Shown piece after piece: positions 6,184 to 13,990 of a stretch of 52,692 nt of DNA. The notes beneath the pieces were generated by a model. It had not been told where the DNA came from and did no database searches. It saw only the letters and a list, made by a program, of their open reading frames with translations. The stretch is from the NCBI GenBank assembly GCA_016794365.1, contig JAEUKB010000025.1:1-52692 (forward strand), in the 5' to 3' direction. This DNA comes from Myxococcales bacterium. Lineage in GTDB: Bacteria > Myxococcota_A > Polyangia > Palsa-1104 > JAEUJZ01. The position numbers and the translations under genes are program-made. Numbering within the stretch: the first letter of the stretch is position 1; the number at the start of each line of letters is the position of its first letter.

Positions 6184-7086
6184 TTACAGACCAGCGCCAG
6201 GCGCGCCAACGCGGTACGTCGGGCCTCCACCACCTGGGTGGGGCGGGGCGCTGGGGGCCGGAGCGGCGGGCGGCGGACGATAACCACCGGGAGCCGGAGC
6301 CGGAGCGGCAGGCGGCGGACGATAACCACCGGGAGCCGGAGCTGGAGCGGCAGGCGGCGGACGATAGCCTCCACCGGGCGGTGTGTACACAGGCGGAGCA
6401 CCGACCGCGCCACCACCGTAGACGGGAGCGGGACGATAGACCGGAGCCGGAGCCACGGGAGGCGGCGGAGCGACAACCGTGCCACCACCATAGACGGGAG
6501 CGGGACGATAGACCGGAGCCGGAGCCACGGGAGGCGGCGGAGCGACAACCGTGCCGCCACCGTAGACGGGAGCGGGACGATAGACCGGAGCCGGAGCCAC
6601 GGGAGGCGGAGGAGCGACGACCGTGCCGCCACCGTAGACGGGAGCGGGACGATAGACCGGGGCCGGAGGAGCGACGACCGTGCCGCCACCGTAGACGGGA
6701 GCGGGACGATAGACCGGGCTCGATGGATACGCTGGGGCACCATATCCCGACGGAGCCCAGTGCGCGCGATAGTAAGAGCCGCCGACAAAGCGCGGTCCCA
6801 CGTAGATGTAGCCCGGACGAACCGGCGAACAGTAGCCACGCGCCCAGAACCAGCGACCGGCCCAGTCCCAGCGGCCCGGCACGAAGATGGTTCCGTATCC
6901 GCAGGTCAGCACCGGCTCATAGCGCGGCGCGGGCGGAGCCATCGACACCGCAATCGGGGCCGGTGGGTTGTCTGGAATGTATTCCATCGTGGTCCCGTAC
7001 TGCGGAGCGGGGGTCTCTACGTACGTGGTGCCGTAGCAGCCGCTCGCTCCAGCCAGCGCACAGAGCGCCGCAAGAACTCGCTTCAT
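6184..7086 (-). CDS. Proline-rich tandem-repeat lipoprotein
   Basis: Track ORF is 6184..7221. I moved the start to the Met of MKRVLAALCALAGASGC (7086), which gives a signal peptide plus lipobox. The body has a W/Y/G-rich segment followed by repeated PAPVYRPAPVYGGGTVVAPPPPVA and GGYRPPPAAPAPAP units. The + strand ORF 6238.. covering the same DNA is an artefact that fuses into trpS. Confidence 0.6.
   Translation of the reverse strand: MKRVLAALCALAGASGCYGTTYVETPAPQYGTTMEYIPDNPPAPIAVSMAPPAPRYEPVLTCGYGTIFVPGRWDWAGRWFWARGYCSPVRPGYIYVGPRFVGGSYYRAHWAPSGYGAPAYPSSPVYRPAPVYGGGTVVAPPAPVYRPAPVYGGGTVVAPPPPVAPAPVYRPAPVYGGGTVVAPPPPVAPAPVYRPAPVYGGGTVVAPPPPVAPAPVYRPAPVYGGGAVGAPPVYTPPGGGYRPPPAAPAPAPGGYRPPPAAPAPAPGGYRPPPAAPAPSAPPHPGGGGPTYRVGAPGAGL
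6259..6718. repeat. In-frame tandem DNA repeats (about three 42-nt units, then about five 72-nt units) inside the proline-rich lipoprotein gene
   Basis: By eye: the unit ggagcggcaggcggcggacgataaccaccgggagccggagc recurs from about 6259, and the 72-nt unit gccaccaccgtagacgggagcgggacgatagaccggagccggagccacgggaggcggcggagcgacaaccgt recurs from about 6409 to 6718 with small variations. Confidence 0.7.
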
Positions 7087-7198
7087 GTGAGGTCTCCTGT
7101 ATGTCTGCGACATTTTACTTTCTCCGACGGGATCATCGCCAGAATTCTTCATGCCGTCGCTGAAGGAGCCCTTGGCTGTGTGCCCGCGCCTTCCACCG

Positions 7199-7250
7199 TT
7201 TGGCGCATCGGCTTGGCGCATCGGCTTGGCGCATCGGCTTGGCGCATCGG
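7199..7250. repeat. Four perfect tandem copies of the 13-mer TTGGCGCATCGGC in the divergent intergenic region upstream of trpS
   Basis: Read directly: ttggcgcatcggc occurs four times at 7199-7250. It lies 70-120 nt upstream of the trpS start and just upstream of a TTGACA hexamer at 7292-7297. Confidence 0.8.
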
Positions 7251-10077: not shown

Positions 10078-10797
10078 ATGTCCGACGCCATCAAACAAAA
10101 CGAACAGATCTACGATCGACTGTGGGCTCGTCTGCCGATTCCGTCGCACAGTGAGTGGCCGATCTGGCCCGAGCTGGAAAAGGAAATCCACGGCAGTGCG
10201 CGGCTGCTGGAAATGGGCGCGGGTGTGCTGCCTCGGATTCCCATCGACGGAGGCTTCTTTGTCGATCTGTCGCAGTCGGCGCTGCGCAAGCTGGATCTAA
10301 ACGGTGGTCATGGCGTTCGTGCCGCCGGTCCGCTGCCGTTTTGCGACGACGCCTTCGATGTCGTCTGTGCCTTTGAAGTCTTGGAACACATTCCCGACGA
10401 CCAAACAGTGCTGACCGAGCTGGCGCGCGTGCTGCGTCCTGGCGGTGCGCTGTTTTTTTCGGTTCCCGTCAATCCGGCGCTCTGGACCGGCTTCGACGAT
10501 GCCTGTGGACATGTCCGTCGCTACATCGCATCGGACCTGGCGGACAGACTGGCCAGCGTCGGTCTTGACATCGAGCGCTGGACCACCCAGCCGAACAAGT
10601 TCAAAAAGCCGATCGGCGATCTCACCGGCTCGTTTTTGCGCGTCTTGGCGCACTTTCCTCGTCTGACCATTTGGCTCAAGCAAAAAGCGCTAGAGACCGA
10701 GATGAGCCGCCACTTCACCTGGCAGACCGGCGACATCGATCAAAGCCACGAGATCGGCGGACTCATCGCCATCGCGCGCAAGGTTATCCGCAGCTAA
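10078..10797 (+). CDS. Class I SAM-dependent methyltransferase
   Basis: 239 aa. The glycine-rich motif LEMGAGVL and the acidic motif FEVLEHIPDD plus the LRPGG motif are typical of Methyltransf_11/25-type enzymes. Confidence 0.7.
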   Translation: MSDAIKQNEQIYDRLWARLPIPSHSEWPIWPELEKEIHGSARLLEMGAGVLPRIPIDGGFFVDLSQSALRKLDLNGGHGVRAAGPLPFCDDAFDVVCAFEVLEHIPDDQTVLTELARVLRPGGALFFSVPVNPALWTGFDDACGHVRRYIASDLADRLASVGLDIERWTTQPNKFKKPIGDLTGSFLRVLAHFPRLTIWLKQKALETEMSRHFTWQTGDIDQSHEIGGLIAIARKVIRS

Positions 10798-10827
10798 GCC
10801 CGCCGATTCGTCAGCCCTGCTTCGTTG

Positions 10828-12054
10828 TCACGCATGTTTCGGTCCGCAATGTGACACGCCGCTTGCTCGCGCCGGTGCTCCAGTCGGTCCGTGTCGGTGC
10901 GCTGTCGCCATTGCTGAAACTTGGAAGATGTCCCCGACGACGACATCGTCCGCTTTCGCCGTTGCGCCACCGGCAGACAGGCTCGCTGGGGCAGCAAAGG
11001 TGCCGTTGCCGTTGCCAGCGACGAAGCTGACCGTTCCTTGCGCACCATGAGAGATCGCCAGATCCAGCTTCCCATCGCCGTTGAGATCCGCTGCTGCGAT
11101 TCCCGTCGAGCCAACCGGGATCGTCAGCGAGCTTGGCGCTTTGAACGTTCCGTCGCCATTGCCGAGCGCGATCGTCAGCGAGCCCATGCCGGTGCCGCCG
11201 CCCGGATTGGCCACAACCATGTCCAGCTTGGTGTCTCCGTCGAAGTCACGCAGCACCACCGCGTTCGGAGAGTTGCCCGTCGCAACCGTCGGCTTCGCAG
11301 TAAACGTGCCCGTGCCCGTTCCAATCAGCACGCTCGCCGTGTTGCTTCCCGAGTTCGTCACCACCGCATCCAGCTTGGTGTCTCCGTCGAGGTTGGCAAA
11401 CGCGATCGCGCGCGGCTGCTGGCCCACATTCGTGGTCATCGCCGTCCCAAACGTGGAGCCGCCATTTCCCGGCAGCAGGCTCACCATGCCTGGCGTCAAA
11501 AGCGACACCAGCACATCGGGCTTGCCGTCGCCCGTAAAGTCAGCGACCACCAAGTTGCGCGGACCGTTGAGCGAGTTCGTCGCCGTGCTTGCGACGGGCA
11601 TAAAGCCGAAGGTGTTGCTGCGATAGCGCAGGATGTTGCTCGCGCTGCCCGACTTGCCGTCGGGATTGGTCACCACAACTTGCGTCGCTCCGCAGGTTCC
11701 CGCTTTGCCTGGAACCGTCAGCGTGATCGTCGTCGGAGAAGTCACCATCACATTGGTTGCAGCAGTGCCACCGATCGTCACCGTCGCGCCCTGGACGAAG
11801 TTCTGTCCGGTCAGCGTGATCGTCGTGCCGCCCGTGTTGCCGATCGCCTCAGGCGAAGCCTGCGTGACCACCGGCGCTGCAACCGTCGTCATATCGACAT
11901 CGCCGCCAGTCATCGTCATATCCGCAGTCGTTCCGCCTGCATCGGTACCCGACGTGGTTTCGTTGTTACAGCTGGCAACGTAGGAAAGCGCGAGCACAGT
12001 TCCCAGTCCCAGACCCAGCAGCGAGCGAGTAAAGCGAAGCGTCTTAACTTTCAT
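10828..12054 (-). CDS. Secreted lipoprotein with an IPT/TIG-like domain and FG-GAP/VCBS (integrin-alpha-like) repeats
   Basis: 408 aa. Signal peptide plus lipobox (VASC). Repeats such as DFTGDGKPDVLV, DGDTKLDAVV, DFDGDTKLDMVV and DLNGDGKLDLAI alternate with G-rich strands. The long + strand track ORF 10921..12165 is antisense to it. Confidence 0.7.
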   Translation of the reverse strand: MKVKTLRFTRSLLGLGLGTVLALSYVASCNNETTSGTDAGGTTADMTMTGGDVDMTTVAAPVVTQASPEAIGNTGGTTITLTGQNFVQGATVTIGGTAATNVMVTSPTTITLTVPGKAGTCGATQVVVTNPDGKSGSASNILRYRSNTFGFMPVASTATNSLNGPRNLVVADFTGDGKPDVLVSLLTPGMVSLLPGNGGSTFGTAMTTNVGQQPRAIAFANLDGDTKLDAVVTNSGSNTASVLIGTGTGTFTAKPTVATGNSPNAVVLRDFDGDTKLDMVVANPGGGTGMGSLTIALGNGDGTFKAPSSLTIPVGSTGIAAADLNGDGKLDLAISHGAQGTVSFVAGNGNGTFAAPASLSAGGATAKADDVVVGDIFQVSAMATAHRHGPTGAPARASGVSHCGPKHA

Positions 12055-12245
12055 ATCTGTGAACCTCCAGTAATCGGATCCAAGCCAAGAATTCCCCTCC
12101 TCGCCATGTTGGTTGCGTATGCGCTGAACCGCAAGACGAGAGGCCGTCTATTGGCCAATTCATAGCGCAGCCACTGTCTGCTTGCGATCTTCAATCAGTC
12201 AAAGCCGCGCAAGACCATGCCAAAAAGAAGGGGAATGCAGGTTGA

Positions 12246-12635
12246 TTAGTTACACTGGCTGAGCAGGACGCTGACGTTGCTTGTCCCACCGTTGGAGCTG
12301 ATCAGATCCGGCTGTAGATCTCCGTTCAGATCGCTCGTTGCGACAAAGAATGGACCCGTTCCGACGGTGTAGACTGTGCCGTTGCCGAACTTTCCGCCGG
12401 TTGCGCCGAGCATCACGCTTACGTTGGCACCGAGCTGGTTCGCCGTCACCAGATCGAGGAATCCGTCGCTGTTGAGATCCACGCTGATCAGGCTGTTCGG
12501 GCCCATGCCGCCGGTCGGCGTCGTCTGCGGCGGCGTCGAGAACGTGCCGTTACCCTGGTTAAAGATCACGCTGACGTTGTTCGTACCAGAGTTCGCTACC
12601 GCCAAATCAGGCTTCTGGTCCCCGTTAAAGTCCAC
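12246..12635 (-). pseudogene. N-terminally truncated FG-GAP repeat paralog, likely a gene remnant
   Basis: 129 aa of FG-GAP-like repeats (DFNGDQKPDLAVANSG..., DLNSDGFLDLV, DLNGDLQPDLI). It has no signal peptide, and an in-frame TGA lies 15 codons upstream of the first Met. It abuts the low-GC island 12636-13090 and is a paralog of the intact gene 10828..12054. Confidence 0.5.
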
Positions 12636-12912
12636 AATCCATGTTCTCGAAGTTCCGTCTGAAGATGATGAATTCTCTGCAATTGGCTCAGGTTTAAATC
12701 AGCACATGAATGACATGCTTGTGTATGTCTTCATCATGAAGATGAGTACAGTGGACTGGAGCAATCAGTCCGCAAAAGGACAGATACGTGATAACGATCG
12801 AAAATAAGCGTATAGATAGCGCTGTGTTGAAGATATGAAGCACGCCATATTCATCGCGGAAAGCGTCATGTGTGTCAGCGTACGCTGCGTGATTTCAGCA
12901 AACGATAGACTT

Positions 12913-13036
12913 AGAACACCTCACAAAACCGTCATGAGGAACCCCGAGTGCAAAGAGGAGGACCGGAGCGTACGCAAGTACGTGAGGACCGACGATGCAG
13001 CAAACGGGGTCCGCAATAGGTTTTGTGAGGTGTTCT
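12913..13036. repeat. 124-bp element bounded by an 18-bp perfect inverted repeat (AGAACACCTCACAAAACC ... GGTTTTGTGAGGTGTTCT) with nested internal palindromes
   Basis: Read directly: left arm 12913-12930, right arm 13019-13036. Inside are GGAACCCCG / CGGGGTCC and CGTAC-GCAA-GTACG sub-palindromes, so the whole unit can fold into a long hairpin. It lies within the low-GC island 12636-13090. Confidence 0.7.
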
Positions 13037-13049
13037 TACTGTGAGGGAA

Positions 13050-13090
13050 CAAAGAAGAAAGGCCGACGAAGACATCGGCCTTTGGAAACA
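13050..13090 (-). terminator. Rho-independent terminator downstream of the cysteine-rich lipoprotein gene
   Basis: On the minus strand a GC stem (AGGCCGA....TCGGCCT) is followed by a T-rich tract (TTCTTCTTTGTT). It sits 18-50 nt after the stop at 13108. Confidence 0.5.
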
Positions 13091-13107
13091 AGCGCGGACA
13101 AGCGGTG

Positions 13108-13794
13108 CTACTGCGGGAGACGGTTGCCTCGGCAGACGCCCTTGAGGCAGACCGAGCCACCCTGACACTGCTTGCTGTCGGTGCAGGTCGAAAGGCAGTA
13201 CGCATTGATGCAGCGGAATCCGCCAGAGCCACAGTCCACATCAAAGACGCACTGCTTGGTCGTCGGTGCTGGATCCTCGATGCACGAGCCAGAGACGCAG
13301 ATTTGACCGAGTGCGCACTTGGATCCCGTGACGGCACACGAGGAAGCACAGGCTCGGTTTACGCACTGGCTACCCGAAGCACACTGCGAGTCGGTGGTAC
13401 ACAGCGCGCCCGCGACGCCGCAGATGGCCGAATCCGACGGGCGACAGCGACCTGACATGCAGTTTTCACCGCTTTTGCAGGAAGAGCTGTCTTTGCAAGC
13501 ATCCACGCACTTGGCGAGGTTGCAGACGCGATTTGCTCCGCAGACGGCATCACTGTCACAGCTGGTGACGGTGCCAGAGGGCGGCGGATCCGCAGGCTTG
13601 GTCGGGTCGCCAGGGACCGGATAGCAGTTTTCGCCAAGACAGGCGTAACAGCCGCTCTGATCACAGTAGCGGCGCTCAGCCTGTTCAGGATCTTTTTCAC
13701 AGCCCGGCAGCGCCGACAGAAGCGCTAAAGCAAAGGGCACGACAACGGTTGAAAGGCGACTGGTTCCAGCTCGGGAGATCGCAGTGCGGAGCAT
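13108..13794 (-). CDS. Cysteine-rich secreted lipoprotein (Myxococcus-type cysteine-rich repeats)
   Basis: 228 aa. Signal peptide plus lipobox (LSALPGC). About 40 Cys are arranged in recurring C-x-D/N-x-x-x-C-x-S/G-G-x-x-C-x-x-x-x-C units, similar to the C-terminal repeats of the giant protein at 23268. Confidence 0.6.
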   Translation of the reverse strand: MLRTAISRAGTSRLSTVVVPFALALLSALPGCEKDPEQAERRYCDQSGCYACLGENCYPVPGDPTKPADPPPSGTVTSCDSDAVCGANRVCNLAKCVDACKDSSSCKSGENCMSGRCRPSDSAICGVAGALCTTDSQCASGSQCVNRACASSCAVTGSKCALGQICVSGSCIEDPAPTTKQCVFDVDCGSGGFRCINAYCLSTCTDSKQCQGGSVCLKGVCRGNRLPQ

Positions 13795-13990
13795 GTTTTT
13801 CCTCCAGCGACAGAGCTTTTCAAGCTTTTACAGTTCCATCCTACAAGCCCCGTGCCGCATTGCTAGCGCGTTTTCTGTGCTGACGCGCATTCGGGAAATC
13901 GGGGGCTCGGGCGGTTGATTGTGAACAATCGTTAACGAACCGATAGTGAACCATGCTTCGCGTCGCAGGGTGCGCTACCATGCCTGCGAT

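What the first reader, a model, noticed from the sequence alone, without database searches (positions are those of the whole stretch)
12636..13090. Low-GC island of about 450 bp carrying a 124-bp element bounded by 18-bp perfect inverted repeats, next to a decayed gene
Between the truncated FG-GAP ORF (ends at 12635) and the terminator of the Cys-rich lipoprotein gene (13050-13090), the composition drops sharply to roughly mid-40s %GC by eye, with no convincing coding frame. Inside it, AGAACACCTCACAAAACC (12913-12930) and its exact reverse complement GGTTTTGTGAGGTGTTCT (13019-13036) flank 88 nt. Those 88 nt themselves contain GGAACCCCG/CGGGGTCC and CGTAC-GCAA-GTACG palindromes, so the whole 124 nt can fold into one long imperfect hairpin. 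Perfect 18-bp terminal inverted repeats around a short AT-rich core fit a miniature inverted-repeat transposable element or a structured small RNA. Its position next to an N-terminally truncated paralog suggests an old insertion or deletion event.
Basis: seen in the sequence. Interest (0 to 1): 0.55.

Follow-up and report, generated by a model that had tools for sequence, protein, structure and literature searches.

The report
Hairpin mini-transposon of an IS5-type family
The 124-bp inverted-repeat element is a miniature, non-coding transposon (MITE) whose ends match those of IS5-family insertion sequences; it is an ordinary kind of mobile DNA, and its long hairpin is kept intact between copies by paired compensating mutations.

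Summary
The 18-bp perfect inverted repeat sits at exactly the stated coordinates. The 124 nt fold into one long hairpin (-67.5 kcal/mol, z = -8.7). The 275 bp to its left are the lowest-GC stretch of the whole window (43.6% against 60.8%).

The element (12914-13035, flanked by TTA on both sides) is a MITE. Its 17-bp ends are identical to, or one base from, the terminal repeats of two real IS5-family (IS427-type) insertion sequences, in Xanthobacter and Paracoccus. Both of those are also flanked by TTA.

At least six further copies (66-92% identical at the DNA or peptide level) lie in unrelated contexts in metagenomes. Some come from the same samples as this locus. Independent k=31 assemblies break 29-30 nt inside each end, as expected at a repeat boundary.

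Between copies, six base pairs of the hairpin changed on both sides, so pairing is preserved. A 76%-identity relative lacks the whole 2.3-kb segment that holds the FG-GAP genes, the low-GC DNA and the MITE.

This is a new member of a known kind, of modest interest. One oddity remains unexplained: the 28-nt tip of the hairpin is 27/28 identical to an unannotated palindromic repeat in E. coli.

The parts
12914..13035 (.). MITE body, 122 bp (124 bp if the 18-bp perfect repeat 12913-13036 is counted). It is non-coding and folds into one long imperfect hairpin.
   Evidence: Copies in other contexts.
12914..12930 (+). Left terminal inverted repeat, GAACACCTCACAAAACC.
   Evidence: 16/17 identical to the left end of the Paracoccus IS5-family IS (L034). 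17/17 identical to the right end of the Xanthobacter IS (L005).
13019..13035 (+). Right terminal inverted repeat, GGTTTTGTGAGGTGTTC.
12911..12913 (.). Left copy of the flanking direct repeat TTA (or TA, 12912-12913): putative target-site duplication.
   Evidence: The same TTA flanks both autonomous ISs. TAA/TAA flanks the L028 element.
13036..13038 (.). Right copy of the flanking direct repeat TTA (or TA, 13037-13038).
12961..12988 (+). Apical 28-nt core GACCGGAGCGTACGCAAGTACGTGAGGA. It contains the stem CGTAC/GTACG (12969-12973 / 12978-12982) and the GCAA loop (12974-12977). It is nearly invariant between MITE copies.
   Evidence: Alignment A1. 27/28 identical to E. coli intergenic palindromes.
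12657..12910 (.). Low-GC non-coding stretch (about 44% GC), the lowest GC in the window. It carries 7 of the 11 SNPs that separate two strains over 12201-13900.
   Evidence: No match in plasmids or phages. No excess folding.
12856..12910 (+). Possible decayed partial copy of a related element. Three colinear 9-11-mers are shared with the MITE.
   Evidence: shuffle P 0.001-0.008. Not detected by nhmmer, so this is weak.
12246..12656 (-). N-terminally truncated FG-GAP gene fragment. The ORF is 12246-12635 and the similarity to the paralogue runs on to 12656.
13058..13083 (-). Intrinsic terminator of the Cys-rich putative lipoprotein gene (13108-13794, - strand), 22 nt from the MITE.
10782..13108 (.). 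Lineage-specific 2.3-kb segment: TIG/FG-GAP gene 10828-12054, FG-GAP fragment, low-GC DNA, MITE and terminator. It is absent from the closest syntenic relative.
   Evidence: In L039 the Cys-rich gene and the methyltransferase gene are 24 bp apart.

Best explanation

Inferred mechanism. A transposase (DUF4096 + DDE_Tnp_1) supplied in trans by a full-length IS binds the two 17-bp terminal repeats. It cuts the element out or copies it, and inserts it at a TA-containing target (T-W-A). This duplicates 2-3 bp, here TTA.

The element is a multi-copy dispersed repeat in this organism's community. Its whole length is a hairpin whose pairing is maintained between copies by compensating changes on both arms. 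The cause could be selection on an RNA or single-stranded-DNA hairpin, or the need for both ends to fit the same transposase.

At this locus it sits in non-coding DNA, 22 nt past a terminator. It lies at one edge of a 2.3-kb lineage-specific segment that also holds a truncated FG-GAP gene and a stretch of anomalous low-GC DNA.

Shown: end identity with real ISs, flanking repeats, dispersed copies, the repeat signature in assemblies, and compensatory changes.

Inferred: trans-mobilisation, the exact length of the duplication, and any effect on neighbouring transcripts.
For: 1. Ends match real ISs. An exact-18-mer scan of 185,579 species' genomes gave 9 hits. One lies exactly at the terminus of an 860-bp IS in Xanthobacter sp. 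V4C-4 (L005 5239-6098): TTA|GAGCGCCTCACAAAAC...GGTTTTGTGAGGTGTTC|TTA. A BLAST of the element against plasmids hit the terminus of an annotated 'IS5 family transposase' IS in Paracoccus sp. MC1862: TTA|GAACACCTAACAAAACC...GGTTTTGTTAGGCACTC|TTA.

2. Those ISs are IS5 family. Both encode DUF4096 + DDE_Tnp_1 and match NCBIfam NF033580 transpos_IS5_3. Their size (848-860 bp) and split reading frame fit the IS427 group as described for Paracoccus (PMC3281130).

3. The window element is flanked by TTA on both sides.

4. Dispersed copies. Using the element's six-frame translation as a protein query found copies between a HipA-type locus and a response regulator (L035/L036, 92% identical). These come from the same samples as contigs of the window locus. 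Another copy lies between a class II ribonucleotide reductase and a 481-aa gene (L037/L061, 90% identical). A search of 1.84 billion representative proteins found four more ORFs that run through copies with different flanks (P0052-P0055).

5. Repeat signature in assemblies. Logan contigs are k=31 de Bruijn assemblies (PMC12424806). From four samples they end at 12939/12940 and start at 13009/13010. That is 29-30 nt inside ends at 12911 and 13038, as expected at the border of an exact repeat that includes the TTA. These positions do not coincide with the strain SNPs at 12933 and 13004.

6. Other short hairpin elements carry the same end but different interiors (L001, L025, L028, L029).

7. Pairing is preserved. 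Of 43 pairs, 99.4% of cells are paired and 6 pairs changed on both sides (4 in the terminal helix, 2 in the inner helix). 0 of 500 shuffles reach the observed paired fraction or covariation score, and 2 of 500 reach six doubly changed pairs.

8. No Rfam family matches.
Against: - No empty site (the same locus without the element) was found. Every contig of this species that spans the site carries the element. The only syntenic relative lacks the whole 2.3-kb segment, not just the MITE.
- Multiple copies inside one closed genome were not shown. The source genome is not in the species-representative collection.
- No full-length IS with these ends was found in the window or in the same organism.
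- The flanking repeats of older copies are imperfect: L035 has TCA/TTA, L037 has TGA/TAC and L025 has ATA/TTA.
- It is not resolved whether the duplication is 2 bp (TA, as published for Paracoccus IS427-group elements) or 3 bp (TTA).
Confidence: 0.85

Rival explanations
1. It is a structured small RNA or cis-regulatory RNA hairpin, such as an mRNA stabiliser, a processing site or a terminator-like element. On this reading it is maintained for its RNA function and not as mobile DNA.
For: The fold is very stable. Six compensatory pairs preserve it, and the apical loop changes from GCAA to GTAA, staying GNRA-type. The tip is nearly invariant and resembles palindromic repeats of E. coli that lie inside operons.
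Against: There is no Rfam match even at E<=10. Copies lie in unrelated contexts and in both orientations relative to neighbouring genes. The ends equal IS terminal repeats and carry the same flanking TTA. In the window it lies downstream of a terminator. The one mismatch and the one wobble pair favour opposite strands, so no transcribed strand stands out. This reading can coexist with the MITE reading as a secondary role, as published for ERIC and Correia elements (from my own knowledge).
Confidence: 0.07
2. It is an in-situ remnant of a full-length IS that lost its interior at this locus. That would make it a one-off deletion derivative and not a propagating miniature element.
For: The ends equal IS ends and a flanking TTA is present.
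Against: The same 88-nt interior occurs at at least two other loci with different flanks (L035, L037), and in four more ORF contexts. The deleted form itself therefore spread. The interior shows no similarity to the interiors of the two ISs.
Confidence: 0.03
3. It is an invertible DNA switch: the 18-bp inverted repeats would be recombination sites that flank an 88-bp flippable segment.
For: Perfect inverted repeats flank a short segment in a promoter-proximal intergenic region. Assemblies break inside it.
Against: No recombinase gene is adjacent. All spanning contigs show one orientation. The break points lie 10 nt inside the repeats (12940, 13009). An inversion polymorphism would put them at the inner edges of the repeats (12930, 13019).
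Confidence: 0.01
4. It is a chance palindrome in ordinary intergenic DNA.
For: None beyond its being single-copy in the window.
Against: The expected number of such repeats is far below 1. The fold z-score is -8.7. Homologous copies exist elsewhere.
Confidence: 0.01

Closest known systems
IS5-family insertion sequences of the IS427 group. Examples are the unnamed copies in Xanthobacter sp. V4C-4 (NZ_JBAFWM010000019.1) and Paracoccus sp. MC1862 plasmid NZ_CP067228.1, and the Paracoccus elements IS1248 and ISPpa2 described in PMC3281130.
   Same: The 17-bp terminal repeats are 16-17/17 identical. The same TTA flanks are present. The published size class is 832-865 bp with 13-21-bp repeats and a 2-bp duplication.
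   Different: The window element is 122 bp and encodes no transposase. Its interior is unrelated to the IS interiors and is itself a hairpin.
Bacterial hairpin MITEs: ERIC/IRU (127 bp, enterobacteria), Correia/NEMIS (Neisseria) and RUP (Streptococcus pneumoniae).
   Same: The size is similar (about 100-170 bp). They have terminal inverted repeats, whole-element stem-loops, TA-containing target duplications and an intergenic location (PMC2759123). The ERIC core GGAGCTTACATAAGTAAGTGA matches the window's tip at 17/21 positions.
   Different: The terminal repeats are unrelated: ERIC has TATACTC...GAGTATA. The core similarity to ERIC is only marginal (25 of 1000 shuffles reach it). The host lineage differs. 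Here a cognate IS family can be named, whereas to my knowledge none is established for ERIC or Correia.
An unannotated palindromic repeat of about 120 nt in E. coli (pyrH-frr, rlmKL-ycbX and pheM-pheS intergenic regions) and a similar element on Allorhizobium ampelinum (Agrobacterium vitis) S4 plasmid pAtS4e.
   Same: The apical 28 nt are 27/28 identical (local alignment score 51, against 15.8 +/- 2.2 for shuffles). The same stem with an NNAA loop sits at the centre of a long palindrome.
   Different: The outer arms and ends are completely different (AAAGYCTGT...ACAGRCTTT type). E. coli has only 1-4 copies per genome. No link to an IS is known.

Membership tests
MITE (non-autonomous DNA transposon) of the IS5 family / IS427 group | Terminal inverted repeats that match those of an autonomous IS of the family. 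| tested here: met
   17/17 identical to the right end of the Xanthobacter IS and 16/17 to the left end of the Paracoccus IS. Both ISs encode DUF4096 + DDE_Tnp_1 / NF033580.
MITE (non-autonomous DNA transposon) of the IS5 family / IS427 group | Small size and no transposase gene. | tested here: met
   122 bp. The frames that are open across it are only 34-41 codons long. A search of 1.84 billion representative proteins with the ORF that spans it found only ORFs read through other copies. The element's peptides were not scanned against a protein-family library.
MITE (non-autonomous DNA transposon) of the IS5 family / IS427 group | Short target-site duplication like that of the parent IS. | tested here: met
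   TTA at 12911-12913 and 13036-13038. TTA/TTA flanks both ISs and TAA/TAA flanks L028. The flanks are imperfect in L025, L035 and L037. A 2-bp against a 3-bp duplication is not resolved.
MITE (non-autonomous DNA transposon) of the IS5 family / IS427 group | Several copies at different sites. | tested here: met
   L035/L036, L037/L061 and P0052-P0055 have different flanks. The k=31 contig ends give a repeat signature. Copies within one closed genome could not be counted.
MITE (non-autonomous DNA transposon) of the IS5 family / IS427 group | Presence/absence polymorphism, meaning an empty site with a single copy of the target. | tested here: inconclusive
   No empty site was found. The relative L039 lacks the whole 2.3-kb segment. 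Relatives of the L037 locus have a different neighbour gene.
MITE (non-autonomous DNA transposon) of the IS5 family / IS427 group | A cognate transposase in the same genome, and mobilisation by it. | not testable with these tools
   No transposase homologue was found in the window. The source genome is not available.
ERIC / IRU repeats | 127-bp consensus with TATAC...GTATA-type ends. | tested here: not met
   The ends are unrelated. Only a 17/21 core match was found, reached by 25 of 1000 shuffles.
Described structured RNA family (Rfam 15) | A covariance-model match at or near the gathering score. | tested here: not met
   There are no gathering-level hits in the window. The best hit over the element has E = 9.2, to a plant microRNA model.
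Invertible promoter / phase-variation switch | Both orientations present, with an adjacent recombinase. | tested here: not met
   All contigs show a single orientation and no recombinase gene is nearby.

The most novel reading that the evidence does not exclude
The 28-nt tip of the hairpin (GACCGGAGCGTAC-NNAA-GTACGTGAGGA) could be a sequence-specific functional module. It might be a binding or processing site for a conserved host factor, acting on RNA or on hairpin DNA.

The module is shared by palindromic repeat families that have unrelated ends, in distant bacteria: this IS427-type MITE, three E. coli intergenic palindromes that lie next to translation-related genes, an Agrobacterium vitis plasmid element and, more loosely, ERIC.

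If this is right, this MITE family would also be the first link between ERIC-like palindromes and an identifiable transposase family.
Probability: 0.15. Interest if true: 0.6.

Novelty: new member of a known kind. Interest (0 to 1): 0.3.

Why it matters
MITEs are common, so the main result mostly explains away an odd-looking sequence. It also has practical uses.

- It marks a repeat that breaks short-read assemblies of this organism at a predictable place.
- It flags the 2.3-kb FG-GAP segment as variable DNA.
- It provides a clean case in which a bacterial MITE can be tied to a named IS group.

Two features go beyond the routine. First, every stem substitution between copies but one is compensated or forms a wobble pair. 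This points to a constraint on the hairpin itself and not only on the transposase-binding ends. Second, the hairpin tip is almost identical to palindromic repeats in E. coli and Agrobacterium that nobody has annotated. If that is not coincidence, it points to a widely shared functional hairpin.

Tried and rejected
- Rfam, at gathering and at permissive thresholds, gave nothing relevant.
- Exact 18-mer scans of species-representative genomes and JGI metagenomes mostly gave single chance hits. No genome had both arms, and the source genome is absent.
- A degenerate two-arm pattern in viral contigs gave no hits.
- The phage collection gave no match to the element.
- The low-GC stretch has no meaningful match in plasmids or phages and no excess secondary structure. 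Its origin remains unknown.
- nhmmer with a profile of the copies found no further or degenerate copies in the window.
- The search for an empty site failed. All same-species contigs carry the element or break in it. Relatives of the L037 locus are rearranged there.
- The third protein search, with three concatenated neighbour proteins, returned only homologues of the 481-aa protein because of the candidate limit. The L035 locus could therefore not be compared.
- An inversion switch and SNP bubbles were considered as causes of the assembly breaks. Both were rejected because the break positions do not fit.
- Printed-sequence searches of the literature found nothing relevant.
- The organism could not be named. 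NCBIfam gave no lineage-specific family. Gene content (Ser/Thr kinases, Cys-rich repeat lipoproteins, FG-GAP/TIG proteins) resembles Myxococcota, but that is only an impression.

Full report
**1. The observation**

The sequence is as described. AGAACACCTCACAAAACC lies at 12913-12930 and its exact reverse complement at 13019-13036, separated by 88 nt. It is the only perfect inverted repeat of this length in the 52.7-kb window. With up to three mismatches, shuffled sequence gives 0.03 matches against the two observed.

The whole unit folds into a single long hairpin: -67.5 kcal/mol with z = -8.7 on the + strand, and -60.8 kcal/mol with z = -7.1 on the - strand.

The GC drop is real and extreme for this window. 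12636-12910 is 43.6% GC, the lowest of all 275-bp windows (mean 60.8%, sd 3.8). One correction is needed. The element itself is 53% GC, so the low-GC DNA is its left neighbour, not its core.

The FG-GAP ORF (12246-12635, - strand) is a true fragment. It matches only residues 221-356 of the adjacent 408-aa TIG/FG-GAP paralogue. The similarity continues to 12656, beyond any start codon. The terminator of the Cys-rich gene is at 13058-13083.

**2. What the element is: the ends**

No Rfam family matches.

An exact-18-mer scan of one genome per bacterial species gave nine single hits, about the number expected by chance. One of them is not chance. It lies exactly at the right terminus of an 860-bp insertion sequence in Xanthobacter sp. 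V4C-4 (L005 5239-6098). That IS reads TTA|GAGCGCCTCACAAAAC...GGTTTTGTGAGGTGTTC|TTA and contains degenerate transposase ORFs.

Independently, a BLAST of the element against plasmids hit the left terminus of an annotated IS5-family IS on a Paracoccus sp. MC1862 plasmid. It reads TTA|GAACACCTAACAAAACC...GGTTTTGTTAGGCACTC|TTA.

Both ISs encode DUF4096 plus DDE_Tnp_1 and match NCBIfam NF033580, 'IS5 family transposase'. Their size (848-860 bp) and split reading frame fit the IS427 group as characterised experimentally in Paracoccus: 832-865 bp, 13-21-bp repeats, two ORFs with a frameshift, and a 2-bp duplication (PMC3281130).

The window element has the same 17-bp ends (17/17 and 16/17 identical). 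It is flanked by TTA at 12911-12913 and 13036-13038, like both ISs.

**3. What the element is: the copies**

I therefore used the element's six-frame translation as a protein query, to catch spurious ORFs called through other copies.

This found two more loci:

- L035/L036, 92% identical, between a HipA-type locus and a response-regulator gene. These contigs come from the same two samples that also hold contigs of the window locus.
- L037 (and L061 from another sample), 90% identical, lying exactly between the stop codons of a class II ribonucleotide reductase gene and a convergent 481-aa gene.

A search of 1.84 billion representative proteins with the ORF that spans the element found four further ORFs (P0052-P0055). 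They contain the element's peptide with different N- and C-terminal flanks.

Shorter relatives with the same left end but other hairpin interiors occur in a Pyrinomonadaceae MAG (L001) and three metagenome contigs (L025, L028, L029).

**4. Assembly breaks as a repeat signature**

Logan contigs are k=31 de Bruijn assemblies in which every 31-mer is unique (PMC12424806). Contigs from four different runs end at 12939/12940 coming from the left, and start at 13009/13010 coming from the right.

A contig that runs into an exact repeat stops k-2 = 29 nt after the first shared base. This places the repeat boundaries at 12910/12911 and 13038/13039. That is exactly the element plus its TTA flanks.

The breaks do not coincide with the two strain SNPs in the element (12933 and 13004). 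They also do not coincide with the inner edges of the inverted repeats, which is where an inversion polymorphism would break the graph.

Other assemblers also stumble here. One MEGAHIT contig becomes chimeric at 13008/13009 (L015). Another ends at 13023, and an ENA contig ends about 100 nt past the Cys-rich gene.

**5. The hairpin is maintained**

The alignment comprises the window copy, a strain variant, L035 and L037. All 43 pairs of the predicted structure are kept, with 99.4% of cells paired. Six pairs changed on both sides: four in the terminal helix and two in the inner helix (GGAACCCCG/CGGGGTCC becomes GGAACCTTG/CAAGGTCC). 0 of 500 shuffles reach the observed paired fraction or covariation score, 2 of 500 reach six doubly changed pairs, and slid controls collapse to 30-41% paired.

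By my count on the alignment, 23 substitutions separate L035 and L037 from the window copy. Fourteen form compensated pairs, one gives a G-U pair, one gives a mismatch and seven lie in loops. The apical loop changes from GCAA to GTAA.

Co-variation of the terminal helix could simply reflect both ends tracking the same transposase. The two autonomous ISs show the same CCTCAC/CCTAAC co-variation between their ends. The inner helix is harder to explain that way. It suggests a constraint on the hairpin itself, either as RNA or single-stranded DNA, or through repair within the palindrome.

No transcribed strand can be inferred. The one mismatch and the one wobble pair favour opposite strands, and copies lie in both orientations relative to their neighbours.

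**6. The surroundings**

The closest syntenic relative has a Cys-rich protein 76% identical to the window's (L039, activated sludge). There the Cys-rich gene is followed after 24 bp by the convergent methyltransferase gene, then the GH77 and TrpRS genes, in the same order as the window.

So window 10782-13108 is a lineage-specific indel. It holds the 408-aa TIG/FG-GAP gene, the FG-GAP fragment, the low-GC DNA, the MITE and the terminator.

The FG-GAP truncation abuts the low-GC DNA at about 12656, some 255 bp from the MITE, so the MITE did not cause it.

The low-GC stretch behaves as unconstrained DNA. It carries 7 of the 11 SNPs between two strains over 1.7 kb, against none in the FG-GAP fragment. 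It matches nothing in plasmids or phages and does not fold unusually.

The last 55 nt of the low-GC stretch share three colinear 9-11-mers with the MITE (shuffle P 0.001-0.008). This could be a decayed older copy, but a profile search does not see it.

At the L037 locus the MITE also coincides with a synteny break. Relatives at 80-82% identity have a GST-like gene there, and the MITE's first G completes the TAG stop codon of the 481-aa gene.

**7. Comparison with known elements**

In kind, this is a bacterial hairpin MITE like ERIC, Correia or RUP. It is small, has terminal inverted repeats and a whole-element stem-loop, has TA-containing target duplications and sits in intergenic DNA (PMC2759123).

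It is not a member of those families. ERIC's ends are unrelated, and only the 21-nt centre resembles it (17/21; 25 of 1000 shuffles do as well).

Unlike those families, a cognate IS group can be named here.

Membership in 'IS5/IS427-type MITE' passes four tests: ends, size, flanking repeat and dispersed copies. The empty-site test was inconclusive. The test for a cognate transposase in the same genome could not be run.

**8. An unexplained side observation**

The central 28 nt (12961-12988, GACCGGAGCGTACGCAAGTACGTGAGGA) are 27/28 identical to a sequence at the centre of an unannotated palindromic repeat of about 120 nt. That repeat is present in 4,691 of 5,426 complete E. coli genomes, at the pyrH-frr, rlmKL-ycbX and pheM-pheS intergenic regions. 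The local alignment score is 51, against 15.8 +/- 2.2 for shuffles.

A similar element lies on plasmid pAtS4e of Allorhizobium ampelinum (Agrobacterium vitis) S4. The outer arms of those elements are unrelated to the window's.

The stem sequence does not vary, while the first two loop bases do (GC, GT, AC, AT, TC, each followed by AA). That pattern looks more like sequence-specific recognition than a mere requirement for structure. I could not find it described in the literature, and Rfam has nothing at the one E. coli locus scanned, pyrH-frr.

**9. Verdict**

It is a previously undescribed member of a well-known class, so interest is modest (0.3).

The most novel reading still open is that the conserved hairpin tip is a functional module shared across unrelated palindromic repeats in distant bacteria (probability about 0.15).

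Noticed in passing
window 12961-12988; L038 ~545-690 (E. coli pyrH-frr); L058/L059 ~200-440 (rlmKL-ycbX); L060 ~200-440 (pheM-pheS); L057 ~347-485 (A. vitis pAtS4e): The 28-nt tip of the MITE hairpin is 27/28 identical to the centre of an unannotated palindromic repeat of about 120 nt. That repeat occurs at up to 4 places per genome (three distinct loci were inspected) in most E. coli genomes. The tip is about 29/32 identical to an element on an Agrobacterium vitis plasmid. The outer arms are unrelated. No Rfam family or annotation covers the one E. coli copy checked (pyrH-frr).
   Followed up: partly
window 12856-12910: The 55 nt just left of the MITE share three colinear 9-11-mers with the MITE interior (AAAsCGTCATG, AGCGTACGC, CAGCAAACG). 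This may be a decayed older copy. Shuffle P is 0.001-0.008, but nhmmer does not detect it.
   Followed up: partly
window 10782-13108 compared with L039 2252-2277: The whole 2.3-kb block is missing in the closest syntenic relative, where the flanking genes are 24 bp apart. The block holds the TIG/FG-GAP gene, the FG-GAP fragment, the low-GC DNA, the MITE and the terminator.
   Followed up: yes
L037 5715-5841 (also L061): This MITE copy sits exactly between two convergent genes. The TGA stop of the ribonucleotide reductase gene abuts one end. The first G of the other end completes the TAG stop of the 481-aa gene. Relatives have a different neighbour gene there, so synteny breaks at the MITE, and the flanks are not a direct repeat.
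   Followed up: partly
L035 3753-3961: Five tandem copies of a 42-bp unit (86% matches) lie about 130 bp from the L035 MITE copy, inside a 720-bp intergenic region that a gene caller turned into a 182-aa ORF (P0001).
   Followed up: no
L015 1-142: This MEGAHIT contig is chimeric. It follows the window up to 13008 and then continues into unrelated low-GC coding sequence. It is a mis-join inside the MITE.
   Followed up: yes
window 10828-10960 (3' end of the 408-aa TIG/FG-GAP gene): The last ~40 residues (…DIFQVSAMATAHRHGPTGAPARASGVSHCGPKHA) do not look like FG-GAP sequence. The gene may carry a frameshift near its 3' end.
   Followed up: no
window 6257-6718: Near-perfect tandem repeats of 42, 72 and 57 bp (95-100% matches) lie inside a Pro/Gly/Val-rich ORF (6184-7221, - strand). 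They encode repeated APVYRPAPVYGGGTVVAPPPPV units.
   Followed up: no
L043-L048 (contigs carrying P0005): Five Logan contigs from different runs, and one JGI contig, all start 44-57 nt upstream of this Cys-rich gene homologue. This suggests another repeat boundary there.
   Followed up: no
window 12744-12890 compared with 12201-12635: Between two strains (window and L013), 7 of 11 SNPs fall in the low-GC non-coding stretch and none in the 435-bp FG-GAP fragment. The fragment may therefore still be under constraint despite its truncation.
   Followed up: partly
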